Below the pieces are notes generated by a model that had not been told where the DNA came from, did no database searches, and saw only the letters and a list, made by a program, of their open reading frames with translations. Positions 1,572-21,962 of a DNA stretch of 64,000 bases are shown in pieces; position 1 is the first letter of the stretch, and each line of letters begins with the position of its first letter. Origin of the DNA: Candidatus Staskawiczbacteria bacterium. Lineage in GTDB: Bacteria; Patescibacteriota; Minisyncoccia; Minisyncoccales; Staskawiczbacteraceae. A program made the translations under genes and the position numbers. The DNA is taken from positions 15,309 to 79,308 of the forward strand of contig CAISIO010000006.1 of NCBI GenBank assembly GCA_903885445.1, in the 5' to 3' direction.

Positions 1572-1574
1572 GAT

Positions 1575-3580: not shown

Positions 3581-3599
3581 ATATTTATTGATTCAGTTT

Positions 3600-5537: not shown

Positions 5538-5559
5538 AGGTTGGGCTAATTTTTATAAA

Positions 5560-9200: not shown

Positions 9201-9232
9201 ATTTTATTTTATTTAATGATATTTACTATAAC

Positions 9233-10414
9233 CTATTTATGTAAAAAATCCCATTGCTTAATGATATTTTTGATATCAAAATATTCAGCCCTCCTCAAGG
9301 ATTTCCCGGCCAAATCGCTCCTTAATTTTTCATCTTCCAGAATTTTGATTATAACCTCGCTTAGAATACGTTCTTCCCTAGCTAAAGGTTGGGTTGCCTT
9401 ATAAAAATTGCCATCGCATACAGGCGCCAAAACTCCGTATTGGGAGAACTCTATTTTATCTGTCTCAAAATTAAAATCGGTATCCGGCGCTAATATTTCT
9501 CTTGCGCCAGATCTAAAATCAGCAGAAATTATTGGCACACCGCAAGCCATGGCTTCCATGGCGGCCATTGGCAAGCCCTCCCACAAAGAGGGCAAAACAA
9601 ATAATTTTGACTTGGCAATGAATTTAAAAGGATTCTTCTGCCAGCCCAACAAAAAAACGTCTCTTCTCAAACCATAACCGTCAATCAGCTCCTTGAAATA
9701 CGGCTTTAACTCGCCATCTCCTAAAATAACCAGTTTTAAATTTTTTATTTCTTTTTTCGCCGCGCTAAATGCTCTTATCAGGTGCCACTGCCCTTTTTGC
9801 CTAACCATCCTTCCTGCGCTGATTACTACCGGATTTTTAAATATCTCCTTATGCTCAAGCTCAAGTTCCTTTTTTGATGATAGCTGTATTTTCCCTACAT
9901 CAATCGGATTATAAATAGTAGTAATTTTTTCTCCTTTCACCCCGAAATTTTTTACAAGGTCAGCGGCTGAAGCCTTAGAAACCGGGATGATCTTTAATGC
10001 TTTGTTAAATAATATTCTTGCTAGAATCATGAACAAAAAATTAAATAAACCCTTCTGCTCTTTCGACAAAAACATATCAACCCGGATAATTGAATTTTTA
10101 TTGGAAAGGATATTAATAATGTTAGCTGAATTACCTAGGCTTATTACCCAGTCCGGTTTTTCCTTAAAAACTATTTTTTTAAACCTATAAAGCCGCACGA
10201 AAAAAGCGCAGATCCTTTGTAAAAAATTAGTTGAAAGCGGAACGCCCAAGCTTACCAAATTTCCTTTATACGGAAATGACACCCTATCTTCGAAAAGCAC
10301 CAGGGTTTGCTTTATGTTTTCTGGCAAATTTAAAGAAATTTCCGAAACGACTCTTTGGCCTCCGGCCTGGTATAAATCAGGTAAAAGGAAAAATAATTTT
10401 TTACCGCTCTTCAT
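9233..10414 (-). CDS. Glycosyltransferase family 4
   Basis: 393 aa with the GT4 C-terminal block LPSLWEGLPMAAMEAMACGVPIIS. It is a tandem paralog of the C-terminal half of 10401..13106. Confidence 0.8.
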   Translation of the reverse strand: MKSGKKLFFLLPDLYQAGGQRVVSEISLNLPENIKQTLVLFEDRVSFPYKGNLVSLGVPLSTNFLQRICAFFVRLYRFKKIVFKEKPDWVISLGNSANIINILSNKNSIIRVDMFLSKEQKGLFNFLFMILARILFNKALKIIPVSKASAADLVKNFGVKGEKITTIYNPIDVGKIQLSSKKELELEHKEIFKNPVVISAGRMVRQKGQWHLIRAFSAAKKEIKNLKLVILGDGELKPYFKELIDGYGLRRDVFLLGWQKNPFKFIAKSKLFVLPSLWEGLPMAAMEAMACGVPIISADFRSGAREILAPDTDFNFETDKIEFSQYGVLAPVCDGNFYKATQPLAREERILSEVIIKILEDEKLRSDLAGKSLRRAEYFDIKNIIKQWDFLHK

Positions 10415-13106
10415 AATTTTCTCTTAAAAAATCCCAATTATTCATGATTTTAAAAACATCAAAATCAGCTGCCCTGTTTAAAGATTTCCTTCTCAGATCG
10501 TCGGCAATTTTTTCATCGGTTAGAACTTTTATTATCGCCTCTTTCAATAATTTTTCGCTTATTTCTAATCCGGCAGACGCCTCTGGCGGCTTTCCAGCCC
10601 CTCGATCGCAAAGAGGCGGGGTCACAATCCCGTATTCTTTATATTCAATTCCTTCCACCTTGGTTTCTATATCCGTTTTCGGAGATAAAATCTCCACCGG
10701 ACCATATTTGCAGCTCGTTGTTATTATGGGCAAACCGCAAGCCATGGCCTCTATAATAACCATAGAGAATCCCTCAATTAAAGAAGATGAAACAAACACT
10801 TTGGACTTAGCCAAAAATTTGAAAGGGTTCTTTTGCCAGCCGAGAAAATAAACGTCTTTTTCGAGTCCCAAGTCTTTAGCTACTTGTTTTAAATCCTGCT
10901 CAAGCTCGCCCGAACCCAAAATAACCAGCTTAGCGTTTTTTACTTTTTCCTTTACTTCCTTAAAAACCCTTATTAAATAGCGCTGACCCTTTCGCTCCTC
11001 GATTCTGCCCACGTTTATCACAACCGGATTAGTAAAAATGTCTTCGTATTCTTGGTCTAAAGGTTCGGCAGATAAACCTGAAATTTTTTTGCTGTCTAAA
11101 AAATTGTATATGATTTTAATCTTATCTTTCTTCATTTCAAAATTATCAACCAAATCTTGCGCCACTCCCTTGGAGACGCAAACAATTTTATATGCTTTGT
11201 TGAAGAAAGTTTTAATTAAAAGCCTGCCTATGCTTCCGTGCGCGGAGGACAAAAACGTGTCGGCTCTTAATATGCTTTGCTTGCAAGAAAAAACGTTCAT
11301 CAGGTTAGCATTAAAACCAAAACTCACCACGTAATCAGGATTTTCTTTTTTTATTATTTTTCTTAGGCGTCTTATGCCAATAAAAAAATAATATATACCG
11401 GGCAATAAATGTTTGCTCAATGGAAGGCCTAAAGAAATAATTTTTCCCTTAAAGTCGTACTTAGAGGGTTCTTGGTTTGTGAAAACCACGGTAATTTTTT
11501 CTATATTTTCCGGCAAGTTAATAGACAGATCAGATATAACCCTTTCCATCCCTCCCGTGGCCAGCAAGGGCGTGAAGAAAACGACTTTTCTCGGCTTGAT
11601 ACTTAGATCGTTCCTAATCTCCGGGAGAAACGCATTATTAATTTTCTCTTTATGTAATATTCCTAATAGATTTTCGTAAATCTGTCTATAATCATTCGCA
11701 TCGTTCTTTACAACAGCAGATGTCGTGTTGCCCGGAATCGTATTCCTAAGATAGGATGCGACAAATTTATTGTTTATATTTTCCAAATCGTTTACATCAG
11801 GAATATTTTCCAAATCGTTTTTTATTTTTTCTTCCAGGTCCTTAAAGCTTTCCACTTTTCTGCAAAGAGGGTGGTAAGAATAGAACACATCACCCAAAAC
11901 ATAGACCGGTTTGCCAGACAGCGCGGCCTCAAGCCCGGGAGTGCCTGTCAGGGCAACAACCCCGGATGAATTTTTTATAATTTCTTGTATATTTTCTGTA
12001 GGAGAAACCAAAACTATGTTCGGTATTTTTTCCAACTCCTCATAAAACTGGCTGGTTCTTGCGCCCGCAGACATCGGGTGTTCCTTCACATAGAGCTTGT
12101 AGGAAAAAGGAAGGCTTAATGCAATATTTTTTACTGTATTCAACTGGTCGCAATAATATGCGGCGTAAACATTGGTTGACGATTCTGGTTGATAGTGTAA
12201 CGGGAAAAAGAAAAATTTTTCTTCATTAATGCGGCCGAAACGATCCTCAACCAGGGAACTTTCAAAAAATTTCTTTTGGTAATAAATTCGTAATTTTTTC
12301 CTTTCGGCTATAAAAAAAGCCCGGGAAAAAGACATCGCCATTGTTTCACTTTCTACGTCCAGTAATCTATACTTTTTACGTGAAAATGAATAGCGCGAGA
12401 GCGGCCGAAAAGTTTCCTTTATCCTTTTTAAAAAGTGTCTTATCAATCCTATCTGGCTAAAATAAACCTTCATCCATTTTACGTATGAAGGCATCTGTTC
12501 GTGGGTTATAAACTTATTCATAAAATCTCTTATAAAATCTTTTTCTTCTTTTAAGATGCTTTCTCTGTTTATCTCTTCAAAAGTTTTATAATATTTTGAG
12601 CACGTAAACTCTTCATCATAAATGTCTAATCTGTTATTTATCCTAGAATCGCCCACCCCCAAGTAAGCCGCGTTATTTTTTCCACAAAGGCGGCAGGCAA
12701 TCAGGGAAAACAAGCAGGCCGGCGGCTCGCTAATTACTACTCCTGGCTTCTCTCTTTCAAAAATAAATTCAAAAAATTTCACCGTGCGCAAGGTTATTTC
12801 AGACGCCCTGGCATAATCTATTTTCAAGAGAGGGCTTCTGTCGAGAATGGAAAAAAAGTCTTTCCACGGCAGCCAGGAAAAATCTTTTTTATTATCGTTA
12901 TCCGCGTGTCCGTAATTTTCTACCTGCCACTCAATCATTGAAATAAATTTCACTCCGTCGGGAAAAAATTTCTTTTTGTCGTACTCAGCGACTTTACTGC
13001 CAAAAATTACAAGACATTCGTCTCCACGCTCCAAAATCTCCGCGGATAATTTTCCGAAGAATTCCGGTAAAAACTGAAAATTACTTATTAGGAAACACCA
13101 TTTCAT
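10401..13106 (-). CDS. Fusion: capsule-polysaccharide-biosynthesis (KpsS/KpsC-like) domain + GT4 glycosyltransferase domain
   Basis: 901 aa. The N-terminal ~500 aa carry FFFFPLHYQPESS, VKEHP and LTGTPGLEAALSGKPVYVLG blocks, as in Capsule_synth-type CMP-sugar-acid transferases. The C-terminal ~390 aa are GT4 (SSLIEGFSMVIIEAMACGLPIIT). Confidence 0.55.
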   Translation of the reverse strand: MKWCFLISNFQFLPEFFGKLSAEILERGDECLVIFGSKVAEYDKKKFFPDGVKFISMIEWQVENYGHADNDNKKDFSWLPWKDFFSILDRSPLLKIDYARASEITLRTVKFFEFIFEREKPGVVISEPPACLFSLIACRLCGKNNAAYLGVGDSRINNRLDIYDEEFTCSKYYKTFEEINRESILKEEKDFIRDFMNKFITHEQMPSYVKWMKVYFSQIGLIRHFLKRIKETFRPLSRYSFSRKKYRLLDVESETMAMSFSRAFFIAERKKLRIYYQKKFFESSLVEDRFGRINEEKFFFFPLHYQPESSTNVYAAYYCDQLNTVKNIALSLPFSYKLYVKEHPMSAGARTSQFYEELEKIPNIVLVSPTENIQEIIKNSSGVVALTGTPGLEAALSGKPVYVLGDVFYSYHPLCRKVESFKDLEEKIKNDLENIPDVNDLENINNKFVASYLRNTIPGNTTSAVVKNDANDYRQIYENLLGILHKEKINNAFLPEIRNDLSIKPRKVVFFTPLLATGGMERVISDLSINLPENIEKITVVFTNQEPSKYDFKGKIISLGLPLSKHLLPGIYYFFIGIRRLRKIIKKENPDYVVSFGFNANLMNVFSCKQSILRADTFLSSAHGSIGRLLIKTFFNKAYKIVCVSKGVAQDLVDNFEMKKDKIKIIYNFLDSKKISGLSAEPLDQEYEDIFTNPVVINVGRIEERKGQRYLIRVFKEVKEKVKNAKLVILGSGELEQDLKQVAKDLGLEKDVYFLGWQKNPFKFLAKSKVFVSSSLIEGFSMVIIEAMACGLPIITTSCKYGPVEILSPKTDIETKVEGIEYKEYGIVTPPLCDRGAGKPPEASAGLEISEKLLKEAIIKVLTDEKIADDLRRKSLNRAADFDVFKIMNNWDFLRENYEER

Positions 13107-14541
13107 AAATTATATTTTTAAAAAAATTAACTTCTTTTTTGCCAACGACTTTTAATAAAAACATTAAAATAACGTAGACGGCTGCGCCCAGTAAAACAGA
13201 CGCCATAACTCTTGGAAACCCTGTCGGCCTGAACCATAATATCGATAAAACCATCAAAGCAGACGCGATAATGCTTTTGACTATGGAATCCCAATCAATA
13301 TGAAACTGAAAATCTTTGAAGGCATAATGCCAGGTTAAAATAAGTGCGCATAGATAAGATATAAAAGTTATTATAGCCGCCGCCATGATTCCAAACCTAG
13401 GAATAAAAACTATGTTTAACCCAAGGTTCAAAAAAGCGGCTATCGCCCAAATTATTGCAACAAGTTTTGTTTTTTTTACGAGATTTAAAATCTGGACGAA
13501 AAAACATATAAGACCGTACATAAACATGCTGGCGGCCACGAGAGGAACGACCATAAACGCATTATCGGCGATTTCCTTGGTAGAAAAAACCGCAAGCAAC
13601 TGGTATGACAAAAATGATAATCCGGAGGCTGCGGGAATCATCATCAATAAAAAATACTTCAAGGAGTTGCTTAAATATTTTTTTACTTCATCAAGATTAT
13701 TCTCGTCGAAAAGCTTAGGTAACACCACCGACAGAACCGATACTGTGGGAATTATAAAAAAAAGCAAGAACATTCCGACAGAATAAGCTGGCGCATAATA
13801 ACCTACAAAAAGTACTCCCAGAAAAAATCCTATTACATATCGGTCGGCCGAAGTAACCGTGGCGTAAGAGATATTATTCACTACTGTCGGCAGGCCGAAG
13901 TGCAAATATTTTTTTAGCAACGAGAAATCCGGTATTTTTACGCCGATCTTTTTTACAATATAAACAAGCGAGATAAAAAAAAGTATCACCCTGATGAGTA
14001 AAAGGGCAAAAACTGCGCCATACAATCCGTAGCCAAGAACAACAGCCGCTATAACTAATCCGGTTTCTCCAATCATTTTTAAAGACGAAAACCAGAAGTA
14101 TTTGCCCACCTCCCTTCTATAGAGCACCGCTGTAAGAAATACTGACCCTAACGACTCAAAAATGATTGCAAGTGAAAGTAGCCTAATTAGTGACGGCGCA
14201 AACTTTAAAAAGGTAGCAACCGGGACGGAAAAAATTGCCAAAAACAAAGCTAGCGCCATATTTACAAAAAAAACAATCGCCAAAGAAGAGTACACCCCTT
14301 CTTTTATTTTTTCTTCGTCTTTTTCGCCGGGCAGAAATCTTGCCATGGCCTCGCATAATCCCAAAAAAGCGAGCGGGACCAGAACGGACATTGTAATTTT
14401 CAGCTGGGACCAAATGCCATAGTCCTGTGCGCCAAGAATTTTTGTAATGATGGGCAAAAAAATTATACCCTGTATGGCTCCCAATGCGTTAAGTACACCC
14501 AAAAGAAGCGTTTGTTTCGCGAATTTTATATAAGAATACAT
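13081..14541 (-). CDS. Polysaccharide flippase, Wzx (MOP/PST) family, second copy
   Basis: 486 aa polytopic protein, paralogous to 102..1571 along its full length. Confidence 0.8.
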   Translation of the reverse strand: MYSYIKFAKQTLLLGVLNALGAIQGIIFLPIITKILGAQDYGIWSQLKITMSVLVPLAFLGLCEAMARFLPGEKDEEKIKEGVYSSLAIVFFVNMALALFLAIFSVPVATFLKFAPSLIRLLSLAIIFESLGSVFLTAVLYRREVGKYFWFSSLKMIGETGLVIAAVVLGYGLYGAVFALLLIRVILFFISLVYIVKKIGVKIPDFSLLKKYLHFGLPTVVNNISYATVTSADRYVIGFFLGVLFVGYYAPAYSVGMFLLFFIIPTVSVLSVVLPKLFDENNLDEVKKYLSNSLKYFLLMMIPAASGLSFLSYQLLAVFSTKEIADNAFMVVPLVAASMFMYGLICFFVQILNLVKKTKLVAIIWAIAAFLNLGLNIVFIPRFGIMAAAIITFISYLCALILTWHYAFKDFQFHIDWDSIVKSIIASALMVLSILWFRPTGFPRVMASVLLGAAVYVILMFLLKVVGKKEVNFFKNIIYEMVFPNK

Positions 14542-14542
14542 A

Positions 14543-15820
14543 TCAAATTTTCTTGATTAGCCCTTTTTTAAAAAATTTATCAACATACTCCAACACTTCC
14601 TTAAAATCCATATTTAGTTCATCGGCAATATCAAAAACGCTTTTGTCGCCCTCTAGGCGTAACATTATTTTTTCTACATTCTGGTTTAGTTTTTTATTTT
14701 TCCGCCAATCAATCCATAGGCCATATCCAGACAAAAACACCGGGCCCTTGAATGTTCTTTTGGGCACATAATCTTTATCTGAAATTTCGTTTTCAAAGGC
14801 GCGCAATATATCCAAAACCGTTTTTTTCGCCTCTTTCATCTTTTCAACTGAAATTATTTTGGGGCTGTCGCCCGAGGTATGGTATTCCGAGTATGGCCAT
14901 CGGCTTATAGATACCATCGGAATGTCTACGCCGGGGCCATTAAAAACCATCTCATCGTTTCTTACAATTTCTCGAAAGCCGCCTATTTTTAAATTGGGGC
15001 ATTTATTTTGCATTATTTTTTTAGCAATTCTGTCTATTTTTGTATTACCCTGTCGGCTTAGTTGTAAAGTTAAATTATTATTGTTTCCGGGCATTTCGAG
15101 AAAAATCCCGTATTTTAAGTTGGGGATTATTTTTTCGTTGCCGCTAAGATACGCGACAGAGCCGATGGTTTCGGGCAAAAATAAAAACTTATACGTATAA
15201 AAATTATTGCGCCTACTTATTTCTTTTGCCAGATCAACTAAAATAGAAACTCCTGCCAAGTCGTCATTTGCCTGGCAGGGATGGCACAAATGAGAAACCA
15301 GAACGATTGTTTTTTTACTTTTTCCTCTTATAGTACAGTCGCCCACTTTTAAATTTCCTTTTTCAAACTTTGAATCTATAAAAACCTTATACTTTTCTTT
15401 GCTCAACTCTTTTAACTTTTCATGCTGTATGCAAAAACCCCAGTCACGCTCATAATATTTAAACTCGAAAGGAATGGCCTTGGGCATATCCGGCCTTGAA
15501 CGCAGGTGTTTTAATAATTCCTTTTTCCCGATAATTTTATTTACTGGCAAAGAGTAAGACATTACGTGCAAGGGATGGTCGTTTAAATCCAAAATTCTTT
15601 TACCGCTCACTTCTTCAATATATGCTTCTTTCACCGACCATTTTTCAGGGACTGTCCATGTCCAACATTTGGTTCCAGATGGAATTTTATGAATTTTCAG
15701 CGGAATAATCTTTGAAATATATTTCAAAGATTCGTCAAAACCATCGGAAATAATATCCCTCCTTTTAAACCAAAGCGCGTCGATTAATTCCATCATTGTG
15801 TTTTTATGGTTTTTGGGCAT
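14543..15820 (-). CDS. Aminopeptidase-like (M28-fold, DUF4910/DUF2172-type) protein of glycan clusters
   Basis: 425 aa with the signature LVSHLCHPCQANDDLAGV. The small C-terminal domain looks winged-helix-like. The function of this family in glycan clusters is unknown. Confidence 0.6.
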   Translation of the reverse strand: MPKNHKNTMMELIDALWFKRRDIISDGFDESLKYISKIIPLKIHKIPSGTKCWTWTVPEKWSVKEAYIEEVSGKRILDLNDHPLHVMSYSLPVNKIIGKKELLKHLRSRPDMPKAIPFEFKYYERDWGFCIQHEKLKELSKEKYKVFIDSKFEKGNLKVGDCTIRGKSKKTIVLVSHLCHPCQANDDLAGVSILVDLAKEISRRNNFYTYKFLFLPETIGSVAYLSGNEKIIPNLKYGIFLEMPGNNNNLTLQLSRQGNTKIDRIAKKIMQNKCPNLKIGGFREIVRNDEMVFNGPGVDIPMVSISRWPYSEYHTSGDSPKIISVEKMKEAKKTVLDILRAFENEISDKDYVPKRTFKGPVFLSGYGLWIDWRKNKKLNQNVEKIMLRLEGDKSVFDIADELNMDFKEVLEYVDKFFKKGLIKKI

Positions 15821-16592
15821 AGACTTCCATTATATTTTTATAAAATGGCACTTTAATATTTTTTCTGATTCTCAAAACTTTCAAAACAAAATTCACTAAA
15901 TCTTTCACCGGCGAAGCGTATGGGGTTCCGATGTAAGGATACTCTACGCCCTTAATCTTATATCCAAAATTATTTAAAATTTGTTTCAAAACTTTGTCTG
16001 ACGGAATAAGAAAATTTCTGGGGTCGCTTAAGAGGGGCAACGTGTTAAATAATTTATAATAAATACTGTTGGCGTTTGGCGTAACCAAGAAAATTATTCC
16101 TCCGCCTTTTTTTAGCCAATAATAGCATTTTTCTATTCGGGAAATCGGATCCGGTATATGCTGTATTGTTCCGCGGAAAATAATTAAATCAAATAAATTG
16201 TCCTTAAAATCAAAATCAACAATAATCCCGTTTTTCCTGGCTTCTTCAAGAGCATAGCCGGAAATATCAACTCCATATTTTTTCCAATTCTGGCCAAACA
16301 AGGATAGAAATCCTCCCTCTCCGCACCCTATATCCAAAACATTTCCGCCCTTATTAATATCAAAATATTTTTTAATATGTTCAAACTCCTGGCGGTACAT
16401 TTCTCTCCTTTTTTCAACAATTTTCCTTTCTACATCATTTGAAGATTTTTCGTCCTCAAAGTAATCCCTCTGGTATAAATCTTGAAGCCTTAAAATGGTT
16501 TCTTTGCGCGCGCCCAAAAAGTTCCTGAAGGCCGATTCATCCTTCTTTAATAAAAACTCCGGCAAGGAATCATTTTTCTCCTGTTTTTCCAT
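15804..16592 (-). CDS. Class I SAM-dependent methyltransferase
   Basis: 262 aa with the VLDIGCGEGGF SAM motif and a LKKGGGIIFLV block. Confidence 0.85.
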   Translation of the reverse strand: MEKQEKNDSLPEFLLKKDESAFRNFLGARKETILRLQDLYQRDYFEDEKSSNDVERKIVEKRREMYRQEFEHIKKYFDINKGGNVLDIGCGEGGFLSLFGQNWKKYGVDISGYALEEARKNGIIVDFDFKDNLFDLIIFRGTIQHIPDPISRIEKCYYWLKKGGGIIFLVTPNANSIYYKLFNTLPLLSDPRNFLIPSDKVLKQILNNFGYKIKGVEYPYIGTPYASPVKDLVNFVLKVLRIRKNIKVPFYKNIMEVYAQKP

Positions 16593-16597
16593 AAATA

Positions 16598-17347
16598 TTA
16601 TTTTTGAGTATTAATTTTTATCAGATGCGGATTTTTGTCTAAAAAATCAATAACTTCTTCTATATAAAATATCTTCCCGGGTTTATAAAGATTTTTATAA
16701 ATTTCTTTTATCAGTTCAAAATCCCTTTCTATGTCTGTAGTCAAGCGGATTTCCGGCCTTTTTAACTTTCCTTCCGCGGCCACGCTTTGAAGTTTAAATA
16801 ATTCAGGGTGCCTATAAATATATGGCGTCGCGTGTTCTCTTTCATATTCTTCCGTTGCATTATTAAAAGCTTTTTCGAGGGCGCCGAGGTTAAACACTTC
16901 TACATGCAAACCAACCGGAAAAGTTTCTTCAAGCACATTTGAAGTGTAATCAGCATCAGAATCTAGGTGCCTCTCAATTACGAGATTGATTACCCCAGGA
17001 TCAGTTGCGGCGTTATCAGAAGGTATTCTAACCACAACCTCCGCGCCGAATTCTTTGGCGGCCAAATAGTGGCGCTCCAATAAATTTTTCTCGCTGCCGC
17101 GGAAATATTTAAAACCATTTTCTTCGGCAAATTTCTCCAAAATATCATTTGCCTGAGTGTCTGGCATCGCCAAAACTAGTTCATCAATATTTTTTGCGGT
17201 TTTTATTCTTTGCAAAACGTGCCACAAAAATTTTTTACCGGCTAAATCCAGCAAAACCTTGTTGGGCAATCTTGTAGATCCCGTTCTTGCCTGTACAATA
17301 GCAACAACTCTTTTTTTATTTTTTAAGGAATTTACCATGCTGTCCAT
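16598..17347 (-). CDS. Cytidylyltransferase (SpsF/NeuA/PseF-type CMP-nonulosonate synthetase candidate)
   Basis: 249 aa with VVAIVQARTGSTRLPNKVL, the canonical N-terminal motif of SpsF-type acylneuraminate cytidylyltransferases. Confidence 0.8.
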   Translation of the reverse strand: MDSMVNSLKNKKRVVAIVQARTGSTRLPNKVLLDLAGKKFLWHVLQRIKTAKNIDELVLAMPDTQANDILEKFAEENGFKYFRGSEKNLLERHYLAAKEFGAEVVVRIPSDNAATDPGVINLVIERHLDSDADYTSNVLEETFPVGLHVEVFNLGALEKAFNNATEEYEREHATPYIYRHPELFKLQSVAAEGKLKRPEIRLTTDIERDFELIKEIYKNLYKPGKIFYIEEVIDFLDKNPHLIKINTQK

Positions 17348-18138
17348 CCTCCATCAATAATAAAATTCTGGCCGGTTGCGTAGCTGGAGGCGTCGCTGGC
17401 CAAAAAAGCTATAATCCCCTTTAAGTCTTCGGGTGTACCTATTCTATTTAACATTGTTTTTGCTTTAAGCCGTTTATAAAAAACTTCATCTTTTTGCACC
17501 TCATCCCTTGGAAAAGGCCCCGGCGAAATACTGTTTACCCTGATTCCATATTGCGCCCAGTAAGAAGCTAAATATTTAGAAAGCGAAATAACAGCTGCTT
17601 TCGAAGGGCCATAGCTTGGAGTGCTATTTGATTTTGTACCTTCATAAATATTGCAATCCGGAGAGACAATCCCATACATAGAGCCGATGTTTATTATTGT
17701 TCCCCCCTTTTGTTTTAATAAGGGCAACGCGAGAGATGAACATCTAAAAACGCTTGAAAAAGTTCCTTGCACGCTTTTATCGAAGTCGTCAAAAGATATT
17801 TCTTCAATGGTTTTTTGCACTCCGTAAAAAGCGTTATTTACCAGAATGTCGATTGTTTTAAATTTCTTCCCGACTTCTTCGAAAAATATCTTAAGAGATT
17901 TATCATCAAAAAAATCTATCGCCTCTATTGAAATTTTTTGCTTTGGGTAGTCTTTTTTTAATTGGGCCGATCTCGATGAAACCTTTCTGTCAAGCAACTC
18001 TTTTTCCGTAACAGTTATTATAACATTCGCTCCCAGCTCAAGAAGGGTCTCTGTCATGGCAGAACCCAAGTGGCCAAGGCCGCCCGTGATTATTGCTGTT
18101 TTCCTTGATAAATTAAATAAATCTTTTACTTTTTTCAT
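17332..18138 (-). CDS. Short-chain dehydrogenase/reductase (classical SDR)
   Basis: 268 aa with the TGGLGHLGSAM cofactor motif, NNAF, and the YGPSKAA catalytic YxxxK. Confidence 0.85.
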   Translation of the reverse strand: MKKVKDLFNLSRKTAIITGGLGHLGSAMTETLLELGANVIITVTEKELLDRKVSSRSAQLKKDYPKQKISIEAIDFFDDKSLKIFFEEVGKKFKTIDILVNNAFYGVQKTIEEISFDDFDKSVQGTFSSVFRCSSLALPLLKQKGGTIINIGSMYGIVSPDCNIYEGTKSNSTPSYGPSKAAVISLSKYLASYWAQYGIRVNSISPGPFPRDEVQKDEVFYKRLKAKTMLNRIGTPEDLKGIIAFLASDASSYATGQNFIIDGGWTAW

Positions 18139-18881
18139 AATGGTTTTTTAAAATAATAGCCGTGGCTATCTATTTTAATCCAATTAATTTTAATATCTCT
18201 CGATTTTAAAAATTCTTCAAACGCCACTTTGTCGCCATTCCAACATCCATAATCGTCGCTTATAATGTATCCCCCGGGGACCACTAAATCGTATAAGCTT
18301 TCCAGGCAAAATTTTGTTGATTCATACCAGTCTCCATCTAGCCTCAAAACAGAGATAGAATTTATTTTCGTTTTTGGCAGAGTATTTTGAAACCATCCCT
18401 TTATAATAGAAACATTATCTAATTTTAATATTTTAACAATTCTGCAGGCGTCGCTATAACTAGCCACGCACCTGTCTATGGATATCAATCTGCCCTTCGG
18501 TTCGCCCTGTTTCCAATTAATCGCTCTTTCTCCGTCTTTCACAGTTGGCTCTGGCAACCCTTCGAAAGAATCGAACATCCATGTTTTGCGGTTTCTGGCA
18601 GTAAAAGCCATCACTGCCGCGCATCCGCCCTTCCAAACACCGCATTCGACTAAATCACCTTCTACCCCATCATTTTTCACCGCTTTCGTTAGATTATAAG
18701 CATTGTCCAATTTTTCATAGCTGACCATTGTATAAGGATAAACTTTTAGAAATAAAAATAGCTTTTCGAAATTAAATAAATCGTGCGATAGAAGTTTCCC
18801 CGAAAAAACTAGGAACCTGTAAAAATTAACCAATCTCTCGTTTTTTCTTACTATATTTTTTATTATTTCTAAATTTAACAT
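18135..18881 (-). CDS. TylF/MycF-family (macrocin-type) sugar O-methyltransferase
   Basis: 248 aa with the GDLVECGVWKGG motif and an LRLDGDWYEST metal-site block typical of TylF-class enzymes. Confidence 0.75.
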   Translation of the reverse strand: MLNLEIIKNIVRKNERLVNFYRFLVFSGKLLSHDLFNFEKLFLFLKVYPYTMVSYEKLDNAYNLTKAVKNDGVEGDLVECGVWKGGCAAVMAFTARNRKTWMFDSFEGLPEPTVKDGERAINWKQGEPKGRLISIDRCVASYSDACRIVKILKLDNVSIIKGWFQNTLPKTKINSISVLRLDGDWYESTKFCLESLYDLVVPGGYIISDDYGCWNGDKVAFEEFLKSRDIKINWIKIDSHGYYFKKPL

Positions 18882-18886
18882 AGTTG

Positions 18887-19966
18887 TTAGATTGCATCCG
18901 ACTTAATAGGATCACCGGCCAATATGTCATGCTTGGCTTTCTTCCCTAGAATAGCGGTAATTTGCGGGGGCCGCAAAAATAGCGCCGGGCGCAAAAATTC
19001 AATTTTATCGCGCGAGATGATTTCTCCTGCTTTAATATTTTCTTTGGCATAAATACCGCGCCGCTGAATAATAATCGTTTCTTTTTCTGAATTCAAAACC
19101 CGCTTTTGGCCATCTCCCAAAACTTTTTCTACCGAACGTATACTGTCTACCATAATTTTAAAAGCAGCCGCGTTCATGGCAAAAGGATGGTCATTGCCTT
19201 TGCGCTTGATATCGTCGGTAAAATGTTTTTCGACAACAACGCCTCCTAACGCCACCATGGCCATAGGTGCTGTAATGCCGCCTAGAGGATCGTCCCCGCC
19301 ACCCTCTTTTCCAATCGTATGATCGGAAAGGCCGACTTCAACGCCAAACTCTTTTTTTAGAGAAATCATGGCATTCAGATTGGAATCGGCCAACATCGAT
19401 GGATAATTAGTTGCGCACTGCAATAAAACAATTCGCTGGTTCCCGGCTTCGCGGATAACCGAAAGCGCTTGCCATATTTCTTCTTTAGAAGAAGCGCCGC
19501 ACGACAAAATAACCGGCTTTTGCTTTTGGGCAATATAGCGTAAAAATTCCAGGTTGTCTATCTCTCCTGAACCAATTTTATATGCAGGTACTCCAATCTT
19601 TTCTAATTCATCAACAGCATCAATATCATACGGACTTGAAAAAAAATCTATACCAATACTTTCACAGAAATCAGAAAATTCCCGCAGCCATTCTCTTGGG
19701 AATTCGGCATCCTTATAAACTTCCGCTACTGGTTTTTCCCATTTTATTTGGTGCGCCAGCTTCACCCCATTAAAACCTTTTTGTGACACTAACTTTGAGG
19801 ATAAAAAGTTTTGGATTTTAAAAGCGTCAGCGCCCGCTTCTTTGGCAAGTTTCGCCAGCATTTTCGCGCGCTCCAAACTGCCATCAAAATTAGAACCTAC
19901 ATCGGCTATAATATATACCGGCTGCCCCTCTCCGATTACATTGTTATTAATTTTTATGGTTGTCAT
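18887..19966 (-). CDS. Nonulosonic acid synthase (NeuB/PseI/LegI family) with C-terminal SAF domain
   Basis: Contains the YIIADVGSNFDG, AFKIQ and LSDHT blocks plus a SAF-like C-terminus. I trimmed the start to ATG 19966 (MTTIKINN), which makes an ATGA overlap with the upstream stop. The track start at 20026 would overlap by 64 nt. Confidence 0.85.
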   Translation of the reverse strand: MTTIKINNNVIGEGQPVYIIADVGSNFDGSLERAKMLAKLAKEAGADAFKIQNFLSSKLVSQKGFNGVKLAHQIKWEKPVAEVYKDAEFPREWLREFSDFCESIGIDFFSSPYDIDAVDELEKIGVPAYKIGSGEIDNLEFLRYIAQKQKPVILSCGASSKEEIWQALSVIREAGNQRIVLLQCATNYPSMLADSNLNAMISLKKEFGVEVGLSDHTIGKEGGGDDPLGGITAPMAMVALGGVVVEKHFTDDIKRKGNDHPFAMNAAAFKIMVDSIRSVEKVLGDGQKRVLNSEKETIIIQRRGIYAKENIKAGEIISRDKIEFLRPALFLRPPQITAILGKKAKHDILAGDPIKSDAI

Positions 19967-20688
19967 ATTTTTAATGTCGCAAGAATTTCTTTGTCTTCCA
20001 TATACCACTGCTTCTCCCACGTCCACAGCAATGTATTGACCGTGACTTCGCCAATAGTTTCTCCCCAGTTTGATTCCATATGGCGCAATAAAGGCGCCAT
20101 TTTAATTTCGTCTAAGGGCTCAAGAATCCGGCCGAGTGAAGTGTGAAACCATTGAGATTGCTTTTTGGGATAGGCTGGCAACGTTCCTCTTAATTTTAAA
20201 CGAAATTCTTCTACAGCCCCGGCATCTTCAAAACCTGGGACAACAATTGTCCCGTCTGGCGTGATAAAAGGATAGTGGAAAGAAATTTTAAACGGAGGCA
20301 GCTCTCTGCCCACAGACAAAGAATATTTTATGCCGGCCTGTATTTGTTCTTGCGAAAATACCTCTTCGGGACGCTGGAACAGAAAAATTTCCACATGCCT
20401 GTTTTGAGGTTTTACGCCATAAGAAATTGGATTGCCGAGCAAAGTAATAAACTTTTTCCAATAATCTTCGAACATCTTCTGGAAATATTCCGGGAAAGGA
20501 AGGCAACACACCAGCGCATAGGTATTAAAACGCCTTGGGATGGGAGAGCCGTTGGCTATTTTTGGCGTTTCATCGGAATTAAGTTCAAAAAAGAATTTCG
20601 AACCAGACACATCTCTTGGCGCCAAGTGCTTATTACGCAAAGTTGTTTCCCAGACAGTACGATATTTTTGCTCCAATGGATTTTCCAT
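19963..20688 (-). CDS. Hypothetical protein, translationally coupled between pseB-like and neuB-like genes
   Basis: 241-aa ORF. Its stop overlaps the neuB-like start (ATGA). I recognise no family. One HxS/Tx-type motif (FHTSLGR) and a degenerate one (RHVEIF) faintly recall 2H phosphoesterases. Confidence 0.6.
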   Translation of the reverse strand: MENPLEQKYRTVWETTLRNKHLAPRDVSGSKFFFELNSDETPKIANGSPIPRRFNTYALVCCLPFPEYFQKMFEDYWKKFITLLGNPISYGVKPQNRHVEIFLFQRPEEVFSQEQIQAGIKYSLSVGRELPPFKISFHYPFITPDGTIVVPGFEDAGAVEEFRLKLRGTLPAYPKKQSQWFHTSLGRILEPLDEIKMAPLLRHMESNWGETIGEVTVNTLLWTWEKQWYMEDKEILATLKI

Positions 20689-20714
20689 GCGGATGTTTAT
20701 GCGTTCAAGTTTAT

Positions 20715-21686
20715 TTACAACGTCTCGATTATTTTTTTAAAATCATCGCGAGTAAACCACTGTGTATTATTGTCGCTGGCATAATGGAATCCATCTGGAA
20801 GCTGCTTGCCTTCCGTAATATTTTTCTTATCCCAAAAAGCAAATTCGGGCTCGATGATAAAATGGTTATCAAACTCTTTGGTGTGCCTTGCTTCTTCACT
20901 GGTAAGCAAGGCTTCTTGCAATTTTTCTCCCGGCCGCATGCCAATGATTTTTATTTGGGCCTCGGGAGCAACCGCCTTTGCCAAATTCATAATTTCCATG
21001 CTGGGAGTCTTGGGAATAAACGTTTCGCCTCCCCGCATTTTTTCTAAAGAATTAATAACTAATTCCACTCCTTGCTCCATCGTCATAAAAAAACGGGTCA
21101 TTTTTTCATGAGTTACCGTTACTGTTCCGGTCTTTTTTTGTTCTAAAAACAAAGGTATGATACTGCCGCAGCTGCCTAAAACATTCGCGTACCGCACGCA
21201 ACTGAAGCGGGTTTTGCGGTCCCCGACGTAAGAGTTTGCCTGGATAAATAATTTTTCCGCACATAGCTTTGTTGCCCCGTACAAATTTACCGGGTTTACC
21301 GCCTTGTCAGAACTTATTAAAATGGCTTTTTCCACGCCATTGTCAATTGCGGCGTCTATTACATTAGCAGTCCCATTTATGTTGGTTTTAATGGCTTCAA
21401 AAGGATTGTACTCGGCAACATGCACATGCTTTAAGGCAGCCGCGTGGACTACAATATCAACACCATTCATTGCGCGGTAAAGGCGGTCTTTATCTCGCAC
21501 ATCTCCAATCAAAAATCTTAACCGCGGATCGTTGAATTTCCTATCCATTTCCACCTCGGCCAATTCTCTGTTATCATAAACGCGAACGCTTTTAGGATTG
21601 TGTTCCCTTAAAATGATTTCTATAAATTTTTGGCCAAAAGATCCGGCTCCTCCGGTGACCAATACTACTTTGTTTTCTAAGCTCAT
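20715..21686 (-). CDS. pseB: UDP-N-acetylglucosamine 4,6-dehydratase (PseB/FlaA1/CapD-type)
   Basis: 323 aa with VLVTGGAGSFGQ, HAAALKHV and the YGATKLCAEK catalytic YxxxK. The length and layout are typical of PseB/FlaA1. Confidence 0.8.
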   Translation of the reverse strand: MSLENKVVLVTGGAGSFGQKFIEIILREHNPKSVRVYDNRELAEVEMDRKFNDPRLRFLIGDVRDKDRLYRAMNGVDIVVHAAALKHVHVAEYNPFEAIKTNINGTANVIDAAIDNGVEKAILISSDKAVNPVNLYGATKLCAEKLFIQANSYVGDRKTRFSCVRYANVLGSCGSIIPLFLEQKKTGTVTVTHEKMTRFFMTMEQGVELVINSLEKMRGGETFIPKTPSMEIMNLAKAVAPEAQIKIIGMRPGEKLQEALLTSEEARHTKEFDNHFIIEPEFAFWDKKNITEGKQLPDGFHYASDNNTQWFTRDDFKKIIETL

Positions 21687-21713: not shown

Positions 21714-21962
21714 TTACCATTTATCAATGGCTTTTCTGACGCGGCTTTTTATACCCAAAAAAACTTTCTCCCCTCCCTTAACTGCTTCGGGCGATAACAG
21801 CCTTAAAATTTCGCGGCCCCAAATCCTGTACTGCCCGCTGACCTTATAGGCACTTATCAACCCATCCTTAATCATCCTTTTCATCGTACTCTCGCTGATT
21901 TTTAGGAAATCACGAGTCTCTTTTGGAGTATATATTTTCTCAGGATTTATTTCTTCTATCAT
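21714..21962 (-). CDS. Excisionase-family / MerR-like helix-turn-helix DNA-binding protein
   Basis: 82 aa. IYTPKETRDFLKISESTMKRMIKDGLISAYKVSGQYRI matches the HTH_17/excisionase pattern. Confidence 0.65.
   Translation of the reverse strand: MIEEINPEKIYTPKETRDFLKISESTMKRMIKDGLISAYKVSGQYRIWGREILRLLSPEAVKGGEKVFLGIKSRVRKAIDKW

What the first reader, a model, noticed from the sequence alone, without database searches (positions are those of the whole stretch)
13081..21686. Nonulosonic-acid (sialic-acid-like) biosynthesis module with an incomplete or non-canonical enzyme set
One co-directional operon, with several overlapping stop/start junctions, encodes the following genes:
- a PseB-type UDP-GlcNAc 4,6-dehydratase (20715-21686)
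- an unknown 241-aa protein
- a NeuB/PseI/LegI-type synthase (18887-19966)
- a TylF-type O-methyltransferase
- a classical SDR
- an SpsF-type cytidylyltransferase (16598-17347)
- a second methyltransferase
- an aminopeptidase-fold DUF4910-like protein
- a Wzx flippase

Canonical pseudaminic and legionaminic pathways also need an aminotransferase (PseC/LegC), an N-acetyltransferase (PseH/LegG-like) and a nucleotide-sugar hydrolase (PseG). None of these is recognisable here.

Instead there are two methyltransferases, an SDR and two proteins of unknown function. This suggests either that the missing steps are encoded elsewhere, or that the product is a modified (for example O-methylated, possibly non-aminated) nonulosonate.

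A host-mimicking acidic sugar on the surface of an episymbiotic, reduced-genome bacterium would be biologically interesting.
Basis: partly seen in the sequence, partly recalled or inferred. Interest (0 to 1): 0.55.

Follow-up and report, generated by a model that had tools for sequence, protein, structure and literature searches.

The report
Aminotransferase-free sialic-acid-like sugar pathway
A candidate-phyla-radiation bacterium carries a real operon for a sialic-acid-like surface sugar in which three textbook enzymes are replaced by a phosphoesterase-fold protein of unknown function plus a small reductase, and the same uncharacterised gene set also recurs in many marine, freshwater and other environmental bacteria.

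Summary
**Observation: confirmed.** All nine genes are at the stated coordinates with the stated families. No PseC, PseH, PseG, LegC or NeuC-type gene exists anywhere in the 64 kb. Six-frame searches with real DegT, GNAT and Epimerase_2 queries gave nothing better than E = 0.11.

**Origin.** The window comes from a Candidatus Staskawiczbacteria (CPR) genome.

**New result.** The "unknown 241-aa protein" (UP241) has a 2H-phosphoesterase fold (AlphaFold pLDDT 95.6; Foldseek hits to LigT and CPDase, probability 1.0).
- It lies next to PseB in 5/5 close relatives.
- It lies next to PseB in 36/39 evaluable marine-type relatives, within NeuB–PseB–UP241.
- The following gene there is either a classical SDR or a cytidylyltransferase fused to a class-III aminotransferase, never both (0/23).
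- Three marine loci carry the window's seven-gene core.
- CPR genomes with close NeuB homologues but no UP241 keep DegT and GNAT genes inside the cluster.

**Interpretation (inferred).** The "non-canonical" reading is therefore favoured over "incomplete". The likely route is:
- PseB makes the UDP-4-keto sugar.
- The SDR reduces the keto group instead of it being aminated.
- UP241 releases the nucleotide.
- A PseI-like synthase and an SpsF-type cytidylyltransferase give a CMP-activated 7-hydroxy (3,5,9-trideoxy) nonulosonate.
- The Cj1295-family DUF4910 protein and the methyltransferases tailor it.

A chemical precedent exists in *Fusobacterium nucleatum* ATCC 25586. The product itself is untested.

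The parts
21972..22000 (-). Promoter-like site (TTGACA-17-TAATAT, 10 of 12 matches) just upstream of HTH_17. A terminator-like hairpin lies at 22057-22034.
   Evidence: These are consensus matches only.
21714..21962 (-). HTH_17 small DNA-binding protein, first gene of the unit. It holds the same position in relatives.
   Evidence: Pfam PF12728. Synteny in L001 and L014. 74% identical to the L001 copy.
20715..21686 (-). PseB, the inverting UDP-GlcNAc 4,6-dehydratase.
   Evidence: TIGR03589 at 464.6 bits, cutoff 407.75. GxxGxxG, SDKA and YGATK motifs are intact.
19963..20688 (-). UP241, a 2H-phosphoesterase-fold protein. Proposed (inferred) UDP-sugar nucleotidase that replaces PseG.
   Evidence: No profile-library hit. 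AlphaFold pLDDT 95.6, pTM 0.91. Foldseek hits to 1vdx, LigT, CPDase and AKAP18 with probability 1.0, best E 1.4e-7. Adjacent to PseB in 5/5 close and 36/39 marine-type relatives. Motifs H98-V-E100 and H182-T-S-L-G-R187.
18887..19966 (-). Nonulosonate synthase, PseI-like, with a lineage-specific 11-aa insertion after the SDH motif.
   Evidence: PF03102 plus SAF. Best PDB match is PseI 8h2c at 210.7 bits, ahead of SpsE at 158 and NeuB at 139. Below both the PseI and NeuB equivalog cutoffs. Tree and insertion.
18135..18881 (-). TylF/NovP/MycF-type sugar O-methyltransferase, an accessory tailoring enzyme.
   Evidence: PF05711 at 164 bits. PDB matches 5i10, NovP and MycF. Replaced or absent in L001 and L014.
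17332..18138 (-). Classical SDR. Proposed (inferred) ketoreductase acting on the C4 keto group of the sugar, which becomes C7 of the nonulosonate.
   Evidence: adh_short_C2. Nearest NCBIfam models are PRK09186, gluconate-5-DH and KduD. S153, Y176 and K180 are intact. It is the next gene after UP241 in 25/42 marine-type loci and is mutually exclusive with the aminotransferase fusion.
16598..17347 (-). SpsF/CTP_transf_3 cytidylyltransferase, the presumed CMP-nonulosonate synthetase.
   Evidence: PF02348 at 124.9 bits. PDB 6oew at 120 bits. The PseF equivalog model scores only 20.6 bits. Fused to MT23 in L014.
15804..16592 (-). Methyltransf_23 SAM-dependent methyltransferase, a core tailoring enzyme.
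   Evidence: Fused to CT3 in L014. Present after CT3 in L039, L051 and L065.
14543..15820 (-). DUF4910/DUF2172/M28-like protein of the Cj1295 / CA_C2195 family. Proposed N5-acyl remodelling enzyme.
   Evidence: PF16254 at 258 bits and PF09940 at 116 bits. PDB 3k9t, E 3.3e-72. Literature: PMC4000134 and PMC3068675.
13081..14541 (-). Wzx-type flippase.
   Evidence: Polysacc_synt_3, Polysacc_synt and MurJ Pfam hits.
10401..13106 (-). 901-aa fusion of a Capsule_synth domain (KpsS/KpsC-like, candidate nonulosonate transferase) with a GT4 glycosyltransferase.
   Evidence: PF05159 plus GT4 domains. Weak hit to NCBIfam BFO_1060, the T. forsythia Pse/Leg-derivative transferase family. These are separate genes in L001 and L014.
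102..10414 (-). Nine further co-directional glycan genes: GT4, GMD-like SDR, GT1, deacetylase-like, methyltransferase, PMT_2 plus methyltransferase, GalE-like epimerase, alpha-2,8-polysialyltransferase-like protein (1575-2660) and a second Wzx (102-1571).
23709..25985 (+). Divergent Wzy_C/O-antigen-ligase-like protein with TPR repeats. A conserved neighbour of the module.
   Evidence: Same neighbour in L001 and L014.
23226..23672 (-). Small CTP_transf_like nucleotidyltransferase. A conserved upstream neighbour, separated here from HTH_17 by an inserted ORF.
   Evidence: Synteny.

Best explanation
The operon is a self-contained, non-canonical variant of the pseudaminic-acid-type nonulosonate pathway. 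It is not a truncated one.

Shown:
- A bona fide PseB, a PseI-related synthase and an SpsF-type cytidylyltransferase are present.
- No aminotransferase, N-acetyltransferase or PseG is present in the window.
- A 2H-phosphoesterase-fold protein (UP241) and a classical SDR are conserved partners of these genes across several bacterial lineages.

Inferred mechanism:
1. PseB converts UDP-GlcNAc to UDP-2-acetamido-2,6-dideoxy-L-arabino-hexos-4-ulose.
2. The keto group is reduced by the SDR instead of being transaminated and acetylated.
3. UP241 cleaves off the nucleotide, doing the job of PseG.
4. The synthase condenses the free 6-deoxy-hexosamine with PEP. This gives a 5-acetamido-3,5,9-trideoxy (7-hydroxy) nonulosonate.
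5. CT3 activates it with CMP.
6. The Cj1295-family DUF4910 protein, MT23 and TylF remodel and methylate it (N5 substituent and/or hydroxyl groups).
7. The Capsule_synth-GT4 protein, and possibly the polysialyltransferase-like protein, transfer it. Wzx and Wzy export and polymerise the glycan.

The order of steps 2 to 4 is unresolved. Reduction may occur on the free 7-keto nonulosonate after condensation.
For: -
- PseC, PseH and PseG are absent from the whole window, including six-frame searches.
- UP241 has a 2H fold at high confidence.
- Linkage: UP241 is adjacent to PseB in 5/5 CPR-type and 36/39 marine-type loci, and NeuB lies within 2.7 kb in 24/25.
- The gene after UP241 is the SDR in 25/42 loci. 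SDR (13/23) and a CT3-class-III-aminotransferase fusion (6/23) never co-occur (0/23). The hypergeometric P is 0.002, though the loci are not phylogenetically independent. This is what is expected if a keto intermediate is either reduced or aminated.
- L039, L051 and L065 carry the identical seven-gene set.
- NeuBs linked to PseB-UP241 form one clade, sister to PseI.
- Assignment by elimination: the minimal marine module has five genes (NeuB-PseB-UP241-SDR-CT3) for five required reactions. That leaves nucleotide release for UP241 and keto reduction for the SDR.
- CPR genomes with close NeuB homologues but no UP241 keep DegT and GNAT in the cluster.
- The SDR's nearest curated families act on free keto-deoxy sugar acids, for example KduD and gluconate-5-DH.
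- Chemical precedent: the F. nucleatum ATCC 25586 O-antigen contains L-6dAltNAc and a 5-acetimidoylamino-3,5,9-trideoxy-nonulosonate.
- The DUF4910 relative Cj1295 is genetically required for an N5-modified pseudaminic acid.
Against: - No product or enzyme activity has been measured.
- Only 64 kb of the genome was examined, out of a source contig of 151 kb. An aminotransferase elsewhere cannot be excluded.
- UP241 relatives at 41-56% identity are stand-alone genes in unrelated contexts (0/12 next to PseB). The family is therefore not dedicated to this pathway.
- The canonical 2H catalytic signature is degenerate. Motif 1 is H-V-E rather than H-x-T/S, and its His is Gly in the marine type.
- No 2H enzyme is known to hydrolyse a UDP-sugar (my own knowledge, not tested here).
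- Known UDP-4-keto-sugar reductases are extended SDRs, not classical ones. Two extended SDRs lie downstream in the operon, at 8235-9200 and 2657-3580.
Confidence: 0.5

Rival explanations
1. This is an ordinary pseudaminic acid pathway whose PseC, PseH and PseG genes lie elsewhere in the genome. UP241, the SDR, DUF4910 and the methyltransferases are then only tailoring or accessory functions.
For: Only 64 kb of the genome was seen. PseB passes the PseB equivalog cutoff. The synthase is closest to PseI. Cj1295-type proteins modify ordinary Pse in C. jejuni. Two of 65 marine-type loci do have a DegT gene within the fetched flank of up to 8 kb.
Against: The aminotransferase-free arrangement is conserved in CPR, Flavobacteriaceae and SAR86 loci. 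UP241 occupies the position next to pseB. CPR genomes with 60-61%-identical NeuB keep DegT and GNAT in the cluster. The strict alternation between SDR and aminotransferase fusion argues that amination is optional and encoded locally.
Confidence: 0.15
2. The pathway is non-canonical, but UP241 is not the nucleotidase. It could bind the nucleotide as a PseB partner, isomerise or epimerise the 4-keto intermediate using the invariant Glu100/His182 pair, or remove a phosphorylated by-product. Nucleotide release would then be done by another protein or occur spontaneously.
For: The first 2H catalytic His is lost in the marine type, while Glu100, Asp145, His182 and Arg187 stay invariant. AKAP18-type 2H domains bind nucleotides without known catalysis (Foldseek hits). 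Stand-alone family members exist. Fusaminic-type sugars differ from Pse in configuration, which would require an extra epimerisation.
Against: The five-gene marine module has no other candidate for the obligatory release of the free sugar. The fold belongs to a phosphoesterase superfamily.
Confidence: 0.2
3. The classical SDR, the two methyltransferases and DUF4910 together build and attach a methylated acyl substituent at N5, comparable to the di-O-methylglyceroyl group of C. jejuni. The C4/C7 keto group would be reduced by one of the downstream extended SDRs, or retained.
For: Cj1295 is required for Pse5(2,3-di-O-methylglyceroyl)7Ac. Two methyltransferases would match a di-O-methyl group. 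In SAR86 locus L009, DUF4910 is paired with a formyltransferase. GalE-like and GMD-like extended SDRs are present at 2657-3580 and 8235-9200.
Against: The SDR follows UP241 directly in 25/42 marine loci, where DUF4910 and MT23 are often absent. DUF4910 appears in only 5/65 and MT23 in 4/65 of the fetched stretches. TylF is not conserved even among close relatives. No ACP, glycerate-activating or acyl-ligase gene is in the operon.
Confidence: 0.1

Closest known systems
Canonical CMP-pseudaminic acid pathway (PseB, C, H, G, I, F) of Campylobacter jejuni and Helicobacter pylori
   Same: It starts with a true PseB equivalog. It uses a PEP-condensing synthase whose best solved relative is C. jejuni PseI. 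It ends with a CTP_transf_3-family cytidylyltransferase.
   Different: There is no PseC, PseH or PseG. The synthase and cytidylyltransferase fall below the PseI and PseF equivalog cutoffs. A 2H-fold protein and a classical SDR take the place of the missing enzymes. The predicted product has a hydroxyl at C7 instead of an acylamino group.
DUF4910 / CA_C2195 / Cj1295 'modified polysaccharide' neighbourhoods (PMC4000134, PMC3068675), including the SpsE/SpsF-type clusters of Clostridium acetobutylicum
   Same: Both combine DUF4910+DUF2172, an SpsE-type synthase, an SpsF-type nucleotidyltransferase, an epimerase/dehydratase, SAM methyltransferases, glycosyltransferases and an exporter.
   Different: The published neighbourhoods include aminosugar N-acetyltransferases, ACPs and ATP-grasp ligases. 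Neither paper mentions a 2H-fold partner of the dehydratase. Here there are no acyl-transfer genes.
[quoted passage not shown]
   Same: This is the only natural 3,5,9-trideoxy (7-hydroxy) nonulosonate found in the literature searches. It co-occurs with 6-deoxy-L-AltNAc, which is the sugar expected from reducing the PseB product.
   Different: It is known only as a chemical structure. No biosynthetic genes were found in the searched literature. No UP241 homologue was attributed to Fusobacterium among the few hits that carry a source name. The configuration and substituents of the product here are unknown.
2H phosphoesterase superfamily (LigT, CPDase, AKAP18, Usb1)
   Same: UP241 shares the fold (Foldseek probability 1.0). 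It has a second motif, H-T-S-L-G-R, typical of the superfamily.
   Different: It matches no Pfam 2H family. The first motif is H-V-E, or G-x-E in the marine type. Its context is nucleotide-sugar metabolism rather than RNA or cyclic-nucleotide metabolism.
Tannerella forsythia Pse/Leg-derivative transferases (Tanf_01245, TFUB4_00887, BFO_1060)
   Same: The N-terminal half of the 901-aa protein weakly matches the BFO_1060-family model and the Capsule_synth family. This fits a CMP-ulosonate-dependent transferase.
   Different: The score (34.9 bits) is far below the model cutoff of 200. Here the domain is fused to a GT4 domain.

Membership tests
Canonical pseudaminic acid pathway | PseB, the inverting UDP-GlcNAc 4,6-dehydratase | tested here: met
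   TIGR03589 at 464.6 bits, cutoff 407.75. Catalytic motifs are present.
Canonical pseudaminic acid pathway | PseC, a DegT-family aminotransferase | tested here: not met
   No DegT or other aminotransferase domain in any scanned ORF. tblastn with three DegT queries and one class-III aminotransferase query gave a best E of 0.11. This applies to the 64-kb window only.
Canonical pseudaminic acid pathway | PseH, a GNAT N-acetyltransferase | tested here: not met
   No acetyltransferase domain in the Pfam scans. GNAT queries gave a best E of 0.11.
Canonical pseudaminic acid pathway | PseG, a GT-B UDP-sugar hydrolase | tested here: not met
   No Glyco_tran_28_C or PseG-like domain in any scanned ORF. 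No PseG query sequence was available for a six-frame search.
Canonical pseudaminic acid pathway | PseI, pseudaminic acid synthase | tested here: inconclusive
   It belongs to the NeuB family with a SAF domain. The best PDB match is PseI 8h2c at 210.7 bits and 37.6% identity. TIGR03586 scores 288.7, below the 340.25 cutoff, and the NeuB model scores slightly higher at 303.3.
Canonical pseudaminic acid pathway | PseF, CMP-pseudaminic acid synthetase | tested here: not met
   TIGR03584 scores 20.6 bits against a cutoff of 205.7. The protein belongs to the SpsF-like branch of CTP_transf_3.
Legionaminic and neuraminic acid pathways | LegB-type dehydratase, LegC aminotransferase, and a hydrolysing 2-epimerase (LegG or NeuC, Epimerase_2) | tested here: not met
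   For the operon's dehydratase (PseB) the LegB model scores 62.8 bits against a cutoff of 475; the two downstream extended SDRs score 151.2 and 145, also below cutoff. No Epimerase_2 domain was found, and the Epimerase_2 query gave a best E of 0.98.
2H phosphoesterase superfamily (UP241) | The characteristic two-lobed alpha+beta fold | tested here: met
   AlphaFold pLDDT 95.6. Foldseek found 31 PDB hits at E <= 1e-3, nearly all 2H-superfamily proteins (LigT, CPDase, AKAP18, Usb1). TM-score reaches 0.72 when normalised to the target.
2H phosphoesterase superfamily (UP241) | Two H-x-T/S-x catalytic motifs | tested here: inconclusive
   Motif 2 (H182-T-S-L) is present and its His is invariant. 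Motif 1 is H98-V-E100, and its His is replaced by Gly in the marine type. No Pfam 2H model matches the protein.
DUF4910 / Cj1295 'aminopeptidase-like polysaccharide biosynthesis protein' | DUF4910 with an inserted DUF2172 domain and a C-terminal wHTH, located in a nonulosonate-type cluster | tested here: met
   PF16254 at 258 bits, PF09940 at 116 bits, and HTH_47 at 17 bits, which is below its cutoff. Full-length match to 3k9t, E 3.3e-72. Direct comparison with the Cj1295 sequence was not done. The link rests on PMC3068675 placing Cj1295 and a C. acetobutylicum protein in one PIRSF family, together with PMC4000134 naming Campylobacter among carriers of CA_C2195-like genes.
3,5,9-trideoxy (7-hydroxy) nonulosonate producers | The product carries OH rather than an acylamino group at C7 | not testable with these tools
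   This needs DMB-LC-MS or NMR of the product. Here it is inferred only from gene content and from the SDR versus aminotransferase alternation.

The most novel reading that the evidence does not exclude
UP241 founds a new class of nucleotide-sugar hydrolases built on the 2H-phosphoesterase fold. It would release the PseB 4-keto sugar itself. The synthase would then make a free 7-keto nonulosonate, which is either reduced (classical SDR) or transaminated (class-III aminotransferase fused to the cytidylyltransferase). This would be a third, 'late-stage C7' route to bacterial sialic-acid-like sugars. It would be widespread in environmental bacteria (marine, freshwater, soil) and present in CPR bacteria, giving 7-hydroxy or 7-amino products from one scaffold.
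Probability: 0.25. Interest if true: 0.8.

Novelty: new variant of a known kind. Interest (0 to 1): 0.64.

Why it matters
Nonulosonic acids are major determinants of bacterial surface recognition, affecting phage, immune and host-cell interactions. Their biosynthesis is taught as three pathways that all rely on DegT aminotransferases or hydrolysing epimerases.

- **A possible fourth solution.** A conserved, aminotransferase-free module with a new enzyme family would add another route. It would also give a genetic handle on the rare 3,5,9-trideoxy nonulosonates, which are known only chemically, and would provide new biocatalysts for sialic-acid analogues.
- **Better annotation.** About 140 metagenomic relatives were found. 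Automated annotation currently labels such clusters 'N-acetylneuraminate synthase' plus hypothetical proteins, so this would change how they are read.
- **CPR biology.** CPR bacteria depend on cell-cell contact with hosts. A strain-variable acidic, methylated surface sugar is therefore a plausible specificity determinant that can now be tested.

Tried and rejected
- **UP241 by sequence alone.** Pfam, NCBIfam and PHROGs gave nothing. A PDB profile search gave only E >= 0.34.
- **Source record.** Exact look-ups of the window's own UP241 protein and of P0191 failed. Cluster look-up returned no names or accessions.
- **GTDB representative scan.** It found only three UP241 loci, so the metagenome scan was needed.
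- **Rosetta-stone test.** P0180 and P0182 fuse an 'Epimerase' domain to a UP241-like domain, but the N-terminal part is not PseB-like (E 0.37). I rejected this as strong evidence.
- **Phase variation.** I tested whether the split DUF4910 in L002 reflects Cj1295-like phase variation. It is a single-base deletion in a non-repetitive context, so I rejected the idea.
- **Downstream extended SDRs.** I tested whether either is a recognisable UDP-4-keto-sugar reductase (WbcJ-type). They give only generic GalE-like and GMD-like matches below cutoff.
- **Literature.** Searches for 2H/LigT with Pse/NeuB/PseB, and for Patescibacteria or CPR with nonulosonic, pseudaminic or legionaminic acid, found nothing relevant. 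The Leptospira cluster paper, the SugarBase preprint and the NulO-synthase phylogeny paper added nothing specific.
- **RNA genes.** No tRNA or Rfam family is present in the window.

Full report
**1.

The nine ORFs lie on the minus strand exactly where stated. Profile searches give these identities:

| Coordinates | Identity | Key score |
|---|---|---|
| 20715-21686 | PseB | TIGR03589 equivalog, 464.6 bits (cutoff 407.75) |
| 19963-20688 | 241-aa protein, "UP241" | no Pfam or NCBIfam hit (PHROGs also negative) |
| 18887-19966 | NeuB + SAF synthase | PF03102, 255.6 bits |
| 18135-18881 | TylF O-methyltransferase | PF05711, 164 bits |
| 17332-18138 | classical SDR | adh_short_C2 |
| 16598-17347 | CTP_transf_3 cytidylyltransferase ("CT3") | PF02348, 124.9 bits |
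| 15804-16592 | Methyltransf_23 ("MT23") | 72.2 bits |
| 14543-15820 | DUF4910 + DUF2172 + M28-like | 258 and 116 bits |
| 13081-14541 | Wzx flippase | Polysacc_synt_3 and related |

- Gene junctions within the nine-gene stretch range from -17 to +26 nt.
- The unit is longer than reported. It begins with an HTH_17 gene (21714-21962). Upstream of that gene are a terminator-like hairpin (22057-22034) and a TTGACA-17-TAATAT promoter-like site (22000-21972).
- It then runs through ten more co-directional glycan genes to position 102. These include a 901-aa Capsule_synth-GT4 fusion, an alpha-2,8-polysialyltransferase-like protein and a second Wzx.
- The SDR keeps S153, Y176 and K180. PseB keeps its GxxGxxG, SDKA and YGATK motifs.

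**2. The "missing" enzymes are absent from the window**

- Pfam scans of the window's ORFs of at least 120 aa, apart from three large ORFs left unscanned (37389-40088, 50414-52579, 56642-59338), found no DegT, other aminotransferase, GNAT, hexapeptide, PseG-like or Epimerase_2 domain.
- As a check independent of ORF calling, I took real DegT, GNAT, Epimerase_2 and class-III aminotransferase proteins from related clusters and searched the window in six frames. The best hit was E = 0.11.
- The remainder of the window holds housekeeping and surface-protein genes, including FtsZ, FtsA, HisRS, ComEC and LepB.
- HisRS is 82-89% identical to sequences named Candidatus Staskawiczbacteria.

**3. The unknown protein has a 2H-phosphoesterase fold**

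- UP241 has only 43 relatives in the word-indexed 5.8-billion-protein search. The exhaustive profile search found 248 clusters at 50% identity among 1.84 billion representatives.
- With a 27-sequence alignment, AlphaFold gave pLDDT 95.6 and pTM 0.91.
- Foldseek against the PDB returned almost exclusively 2H-superfamily proteins with probability 1.0 and best E 1.4e-7. They include *P. horikoshii* 1vdx, *Deinococcus* CPDase, *E. coli* LigT, AKAP18, Usb1 and plant CPDase.
- The sequence shows a typical second motif, W-x-H182-T-S-L-G-R187. The first motif is atypical, H98-V-E100.
- Residues invariant across the family are Glu100, Asp145, Arg163, Gln177, Ser178, His182, Arg187 and a C-terminal EKQWYM block.
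- In one large relative, P0150, Pfam LigT_PEase and 2_5_RNA_ligase2 models match within the UP241-like region.

**4. The gene set is a conserved module, not a local accident**

Close relatives (65-82% identical UP241; L001, L002, L019, L014, L017, L018):
- They repeat the arrangement HTH_17-PseB-UP241-NeuB-...-SDR-...-CT3-MT23-DUF4910-Capsule_synth, and no aminotransferase was found in the stretches fetched.
- L014 is the compact form. It has no TylF, and CT3 and MT23 are fused into one 486-aa protein.

Distant relatives (24-32% identity to the window's UP241), in Flavobacteriaceae and SAR86 MAGs and in dozens of marine, freshwater and soil contigs:
- They show NeuB-PseB-UP241 with overlapping stops and starts.
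- The two subfamilies differ in motif 1, as set out. I call the window's kind type A and the marine kind type B.

Counts over non-redundant loci:

| Measure | CPR-type (type A, >= 60% id) | Type A, < 60% id | Marine type B |
|---|---|---|---|
| PseB adjacent to UP241 | 5/5 | 0/12 | 36/39 |
| NeuB within 2.7 kb | 3/3 | 0/10 | 24/25 |
| Next gene downstream is SDR | n/a | 0/11 | 25/42 |
| Next gene downstream is CT3 | n/a | 0/11 | 10/42 |
| DegT anywhere in locus | 0/5 | 0/20 | 2/65 |

- Where at least 2.3 kb of downstream sequence is available in type B loci, 13/23 have the SDR. Another 6/23 have a class-III aminotransferase fused to CT3. None have both. The hypergeometric P is 0.002, with the caveat that the loci are not phylogenetically independent.
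- L039, L051 and L065 contain DUF4910-NeuB-PseB-UP241-SDR-CT3-MT23. That is the window's core seven genes.
- In a small neighbour-joining tree, the synthases linked to PseB-UP241 (CPR and marine) form one clade sister to *C. jejuni* PseI. The second NeuB copies in the marine loci fall far away. The tree has few taxa and no support values.

**5. A telling contrast inside the CPR**

More than 120 NeuB homologues at 58-86% identity exist, and the named ones come from Patescibacteria, Minisyncoccia and Kaiserbacteria. Two of them on long contigs lack UP241:
- L015 carries a DegT aminotransferase and a GNAT acetyltransferase in the cluster.
- L016 carries two DegT genes, a GNAT and Epimerase_2 in the cluster.

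So where CPR bacteria make a diamino nonulosonate, the genes sit in the cluster. The window type has UP241 and the SDR instead.

**6. Mechanism (inference)**

After PseB, a free 6-deoxy-hexosamine must be produced for the synthase. Canonically this takes PseC, PseH and PseG. The minimal marine module has five genes for five necessary reactions:
- dehydration (PseB)
- a fate for the 4-keto group
- nucleotide release
- PEP condensation (NeuB)
- CMP activation (CT3)

By elimination, the SDR reduces the keto group and UP241 releases the nucleotide. UP241 has a nucleotide-binding phosphoesterase fold, which fits that role.

The strict either/or between the SDR and the aminotransferase fusion is what a keto branch point predicts. 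The product with the SDR would be a 5-acetamido-3,5,9-trideoxy (7-hydroxy) nonulosonate.

Two observations hint that the keto group may be processed after condensation, on a free 7-keto nonulosonate:
- The SDR's nearest curated families are dehydrogenases of free keto-deoxy sugar acids, such as KduD and gluconate-5-DH.
- The alternative enzyme is a class-III aminotransferase fused to the cytidylyltransferase.

I cannot decide the order of these steps from sequence.

**7. Tailoring and transfer**

- The DUF4910 protein matches 3k9t (CA_C2195) over its full length, E 3.3e-72.
- Das et al. 2014 documented conserved neighbourhoods of this family with SpsE, SpsF, an epimerase/dehydratase, methyltransferases and glycosyltransferases. 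They proposed a non-peptidase role in sugar transacylation or deacylation (PMC4000134).
- Hitchen et al. 2010 showed that Cj1295 is required for the 5-N-(2,3-di-O-methylglyceroyl) form of pseudaminic acid. They place Cj1295 in the same aminopeptidase-like PIRSF family as a *C. acetobutylicum* protein, and they proposed that it cleaves the C5 acetamido group (PMC3068675).
- In SAR86 locus L009, DUF4910 is paired with a formyltransferase. In the CPR type it is paired with MT23, which is fused to CT3 in L014.
- I therefore infer N5 remodelling plus methylation.
- TylF is related to the sugar O-methyltransferases NovP and MycF. It is accessory, because close relatives lack or replace it.
- The Capsule_synth domain of the 901-aa protein weakly matches the BFO_1060 family (34.9 bits, below cutoff). 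That family includes the *T. forsythia* Pse/Leg-derivative transferases supported by knock-outs. This domain and the polysialyltransferase-like protein are the candidate nonulosonate transferases.

**8. What is known, and what differs**

- The closest characterised system is the Pse pathway, but three of its six defining enzymes are absent and two more fall below their equivalog cutoffs. It should not be filed as a Pse pathway.
- A natural 3,5,9-trideoxy nonulosonate is known chemically. It occurs in the *F. nucleatum* ATCC 25586 O-antigen together with 6-deoxy-L-AltNAc. I found no genetics for it.
- No paper in the searchable library links a 2H or LigT protein with PseB, NeuB or Pse. None links Patescibacteria or CPR with nonulosonic acids.
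- That library lacks most subscription journals, so prior description cannot be excluded.

**9. Weak points**

- UP241 relatives at 41-56% identity are stand-alone genes in unrelated contexts. These are closer to the window's copy than the marine PseB-linked ones are. This remains unexplained.
- The first 2H histidine is missing in the marine type, so the chemistry may not be that of a classical 2H enzyme.
- Two extended SDRs in the operon could be the true 4-keto reductases.
- Only part of the genome was seen.
- No chemistry was measured.

**10. Verdict**

The finding is real. Its "non-canonical" reading is the better supported one. It generalises to a widespread, apparently undescribed variant of nonulosonate biosynthesis with a new accessory enzyme family. 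I rate it a new variant of a known kind, with interest of about 0.64.

Noticed in passing
window 22086-23117 (-): A 343-aa Ala/Leu-rich ORF with GC about 0.49 (background about 0.39) and no Pfam or PHROG hit. It is inserted between the small CTP_transf_like gene and HTH_17, which are adjacent in syntenic loci L001 and L014. It has its own promoter-like site (23216-23188), identical in its hexamers to the one before HTH_17, and a strong terminator-like hairpin (22057-22034). It looks like a foreign insertion.
   Followed up: partly
window 1575-2660 (-) and 102-1571 (-): A full-length match to PF07388, alpha-2,8-polysialyltransferase (64 bits), followed by a second Wzx flippase at the distal end of the same co-directional gene array. 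This hints at a polymer of, or capped by, the nonulosonate in a CPR bacterium.
   Followed up: no
window 18887-19966 (-), protein residues about 218-228: The synthase carries an 11-residue insertion (GKEGGGDDPLG) immediately after the metal-binding SDH motif. The CPR-type relatives L001 and L014 share it. It is absent from the marine module synthases and from PseI, SpsE and NeuB. The marine synthases read SCH instead of SDH.
   Followed up: partly
L005:10675-12780 and L038, L044, L075, L088, L095: A 701-aa fusion of a CTP_transf_3 cytidylyltransferase with a class-III (Aminotran_3) aminotransferase directly follows UP241. It is mutually exclusive with the SDR.
   Followed up: partly
P0085, P0150, P0144, P0162 (profile-search hits): UP241-like domains are embedded in very large multidomain proteins. 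Partners include NACHT+HEAT, PHP+LigT_PEase+HEAT, HD+APH+AKAP7-like, and UDPGP. The family therefore has lives outside glycan biosynthesis.
   Followed up: partly
L002:15530-15630 versus L001:17700-17800: The DUF4910 gene is split by a single-A deletion in one metagenome copy of an otherwise near-identical contig. The site is not a homopolymeric tract, so it is probably an assembly error or a simple frameshift and not Cj1295-like phase variation.
   Followed up: yes
L008:6233-7891, L009:1915-4139, L005:3316-5025: The marine loci carry a second, very divergent NeuB that lacks the SAF domain. It is next to, or fused with, another CTP_transf_3 gene, and in L005 and L009 a D-2-hydroxyacid dehydrogenase is also nearby. 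This suggests a second ulosonic-acid pathway in the same locus.
   Followed up: no
window 10401-13106 (-): Capsule_synth and GT4 domains are fused into one 901-aa protein here. In L001 and L014 they are separate genes: Capsule_synth of 475 aa, and a methyltransferase+GT4 protein of about 687 aa.
   Followed up: no
window 27111-30755 (-) and 34765-36876 (-): Two very large probable surface proteins lie just beyond the glycan locus. One is 1214 aa with a PG_binding_1 domain. The other is 703 aa with Lamin-tail and Big_3 domains. An ECF-type sigma factor and a radical-SAM gene are nearby.
   Followed up: no
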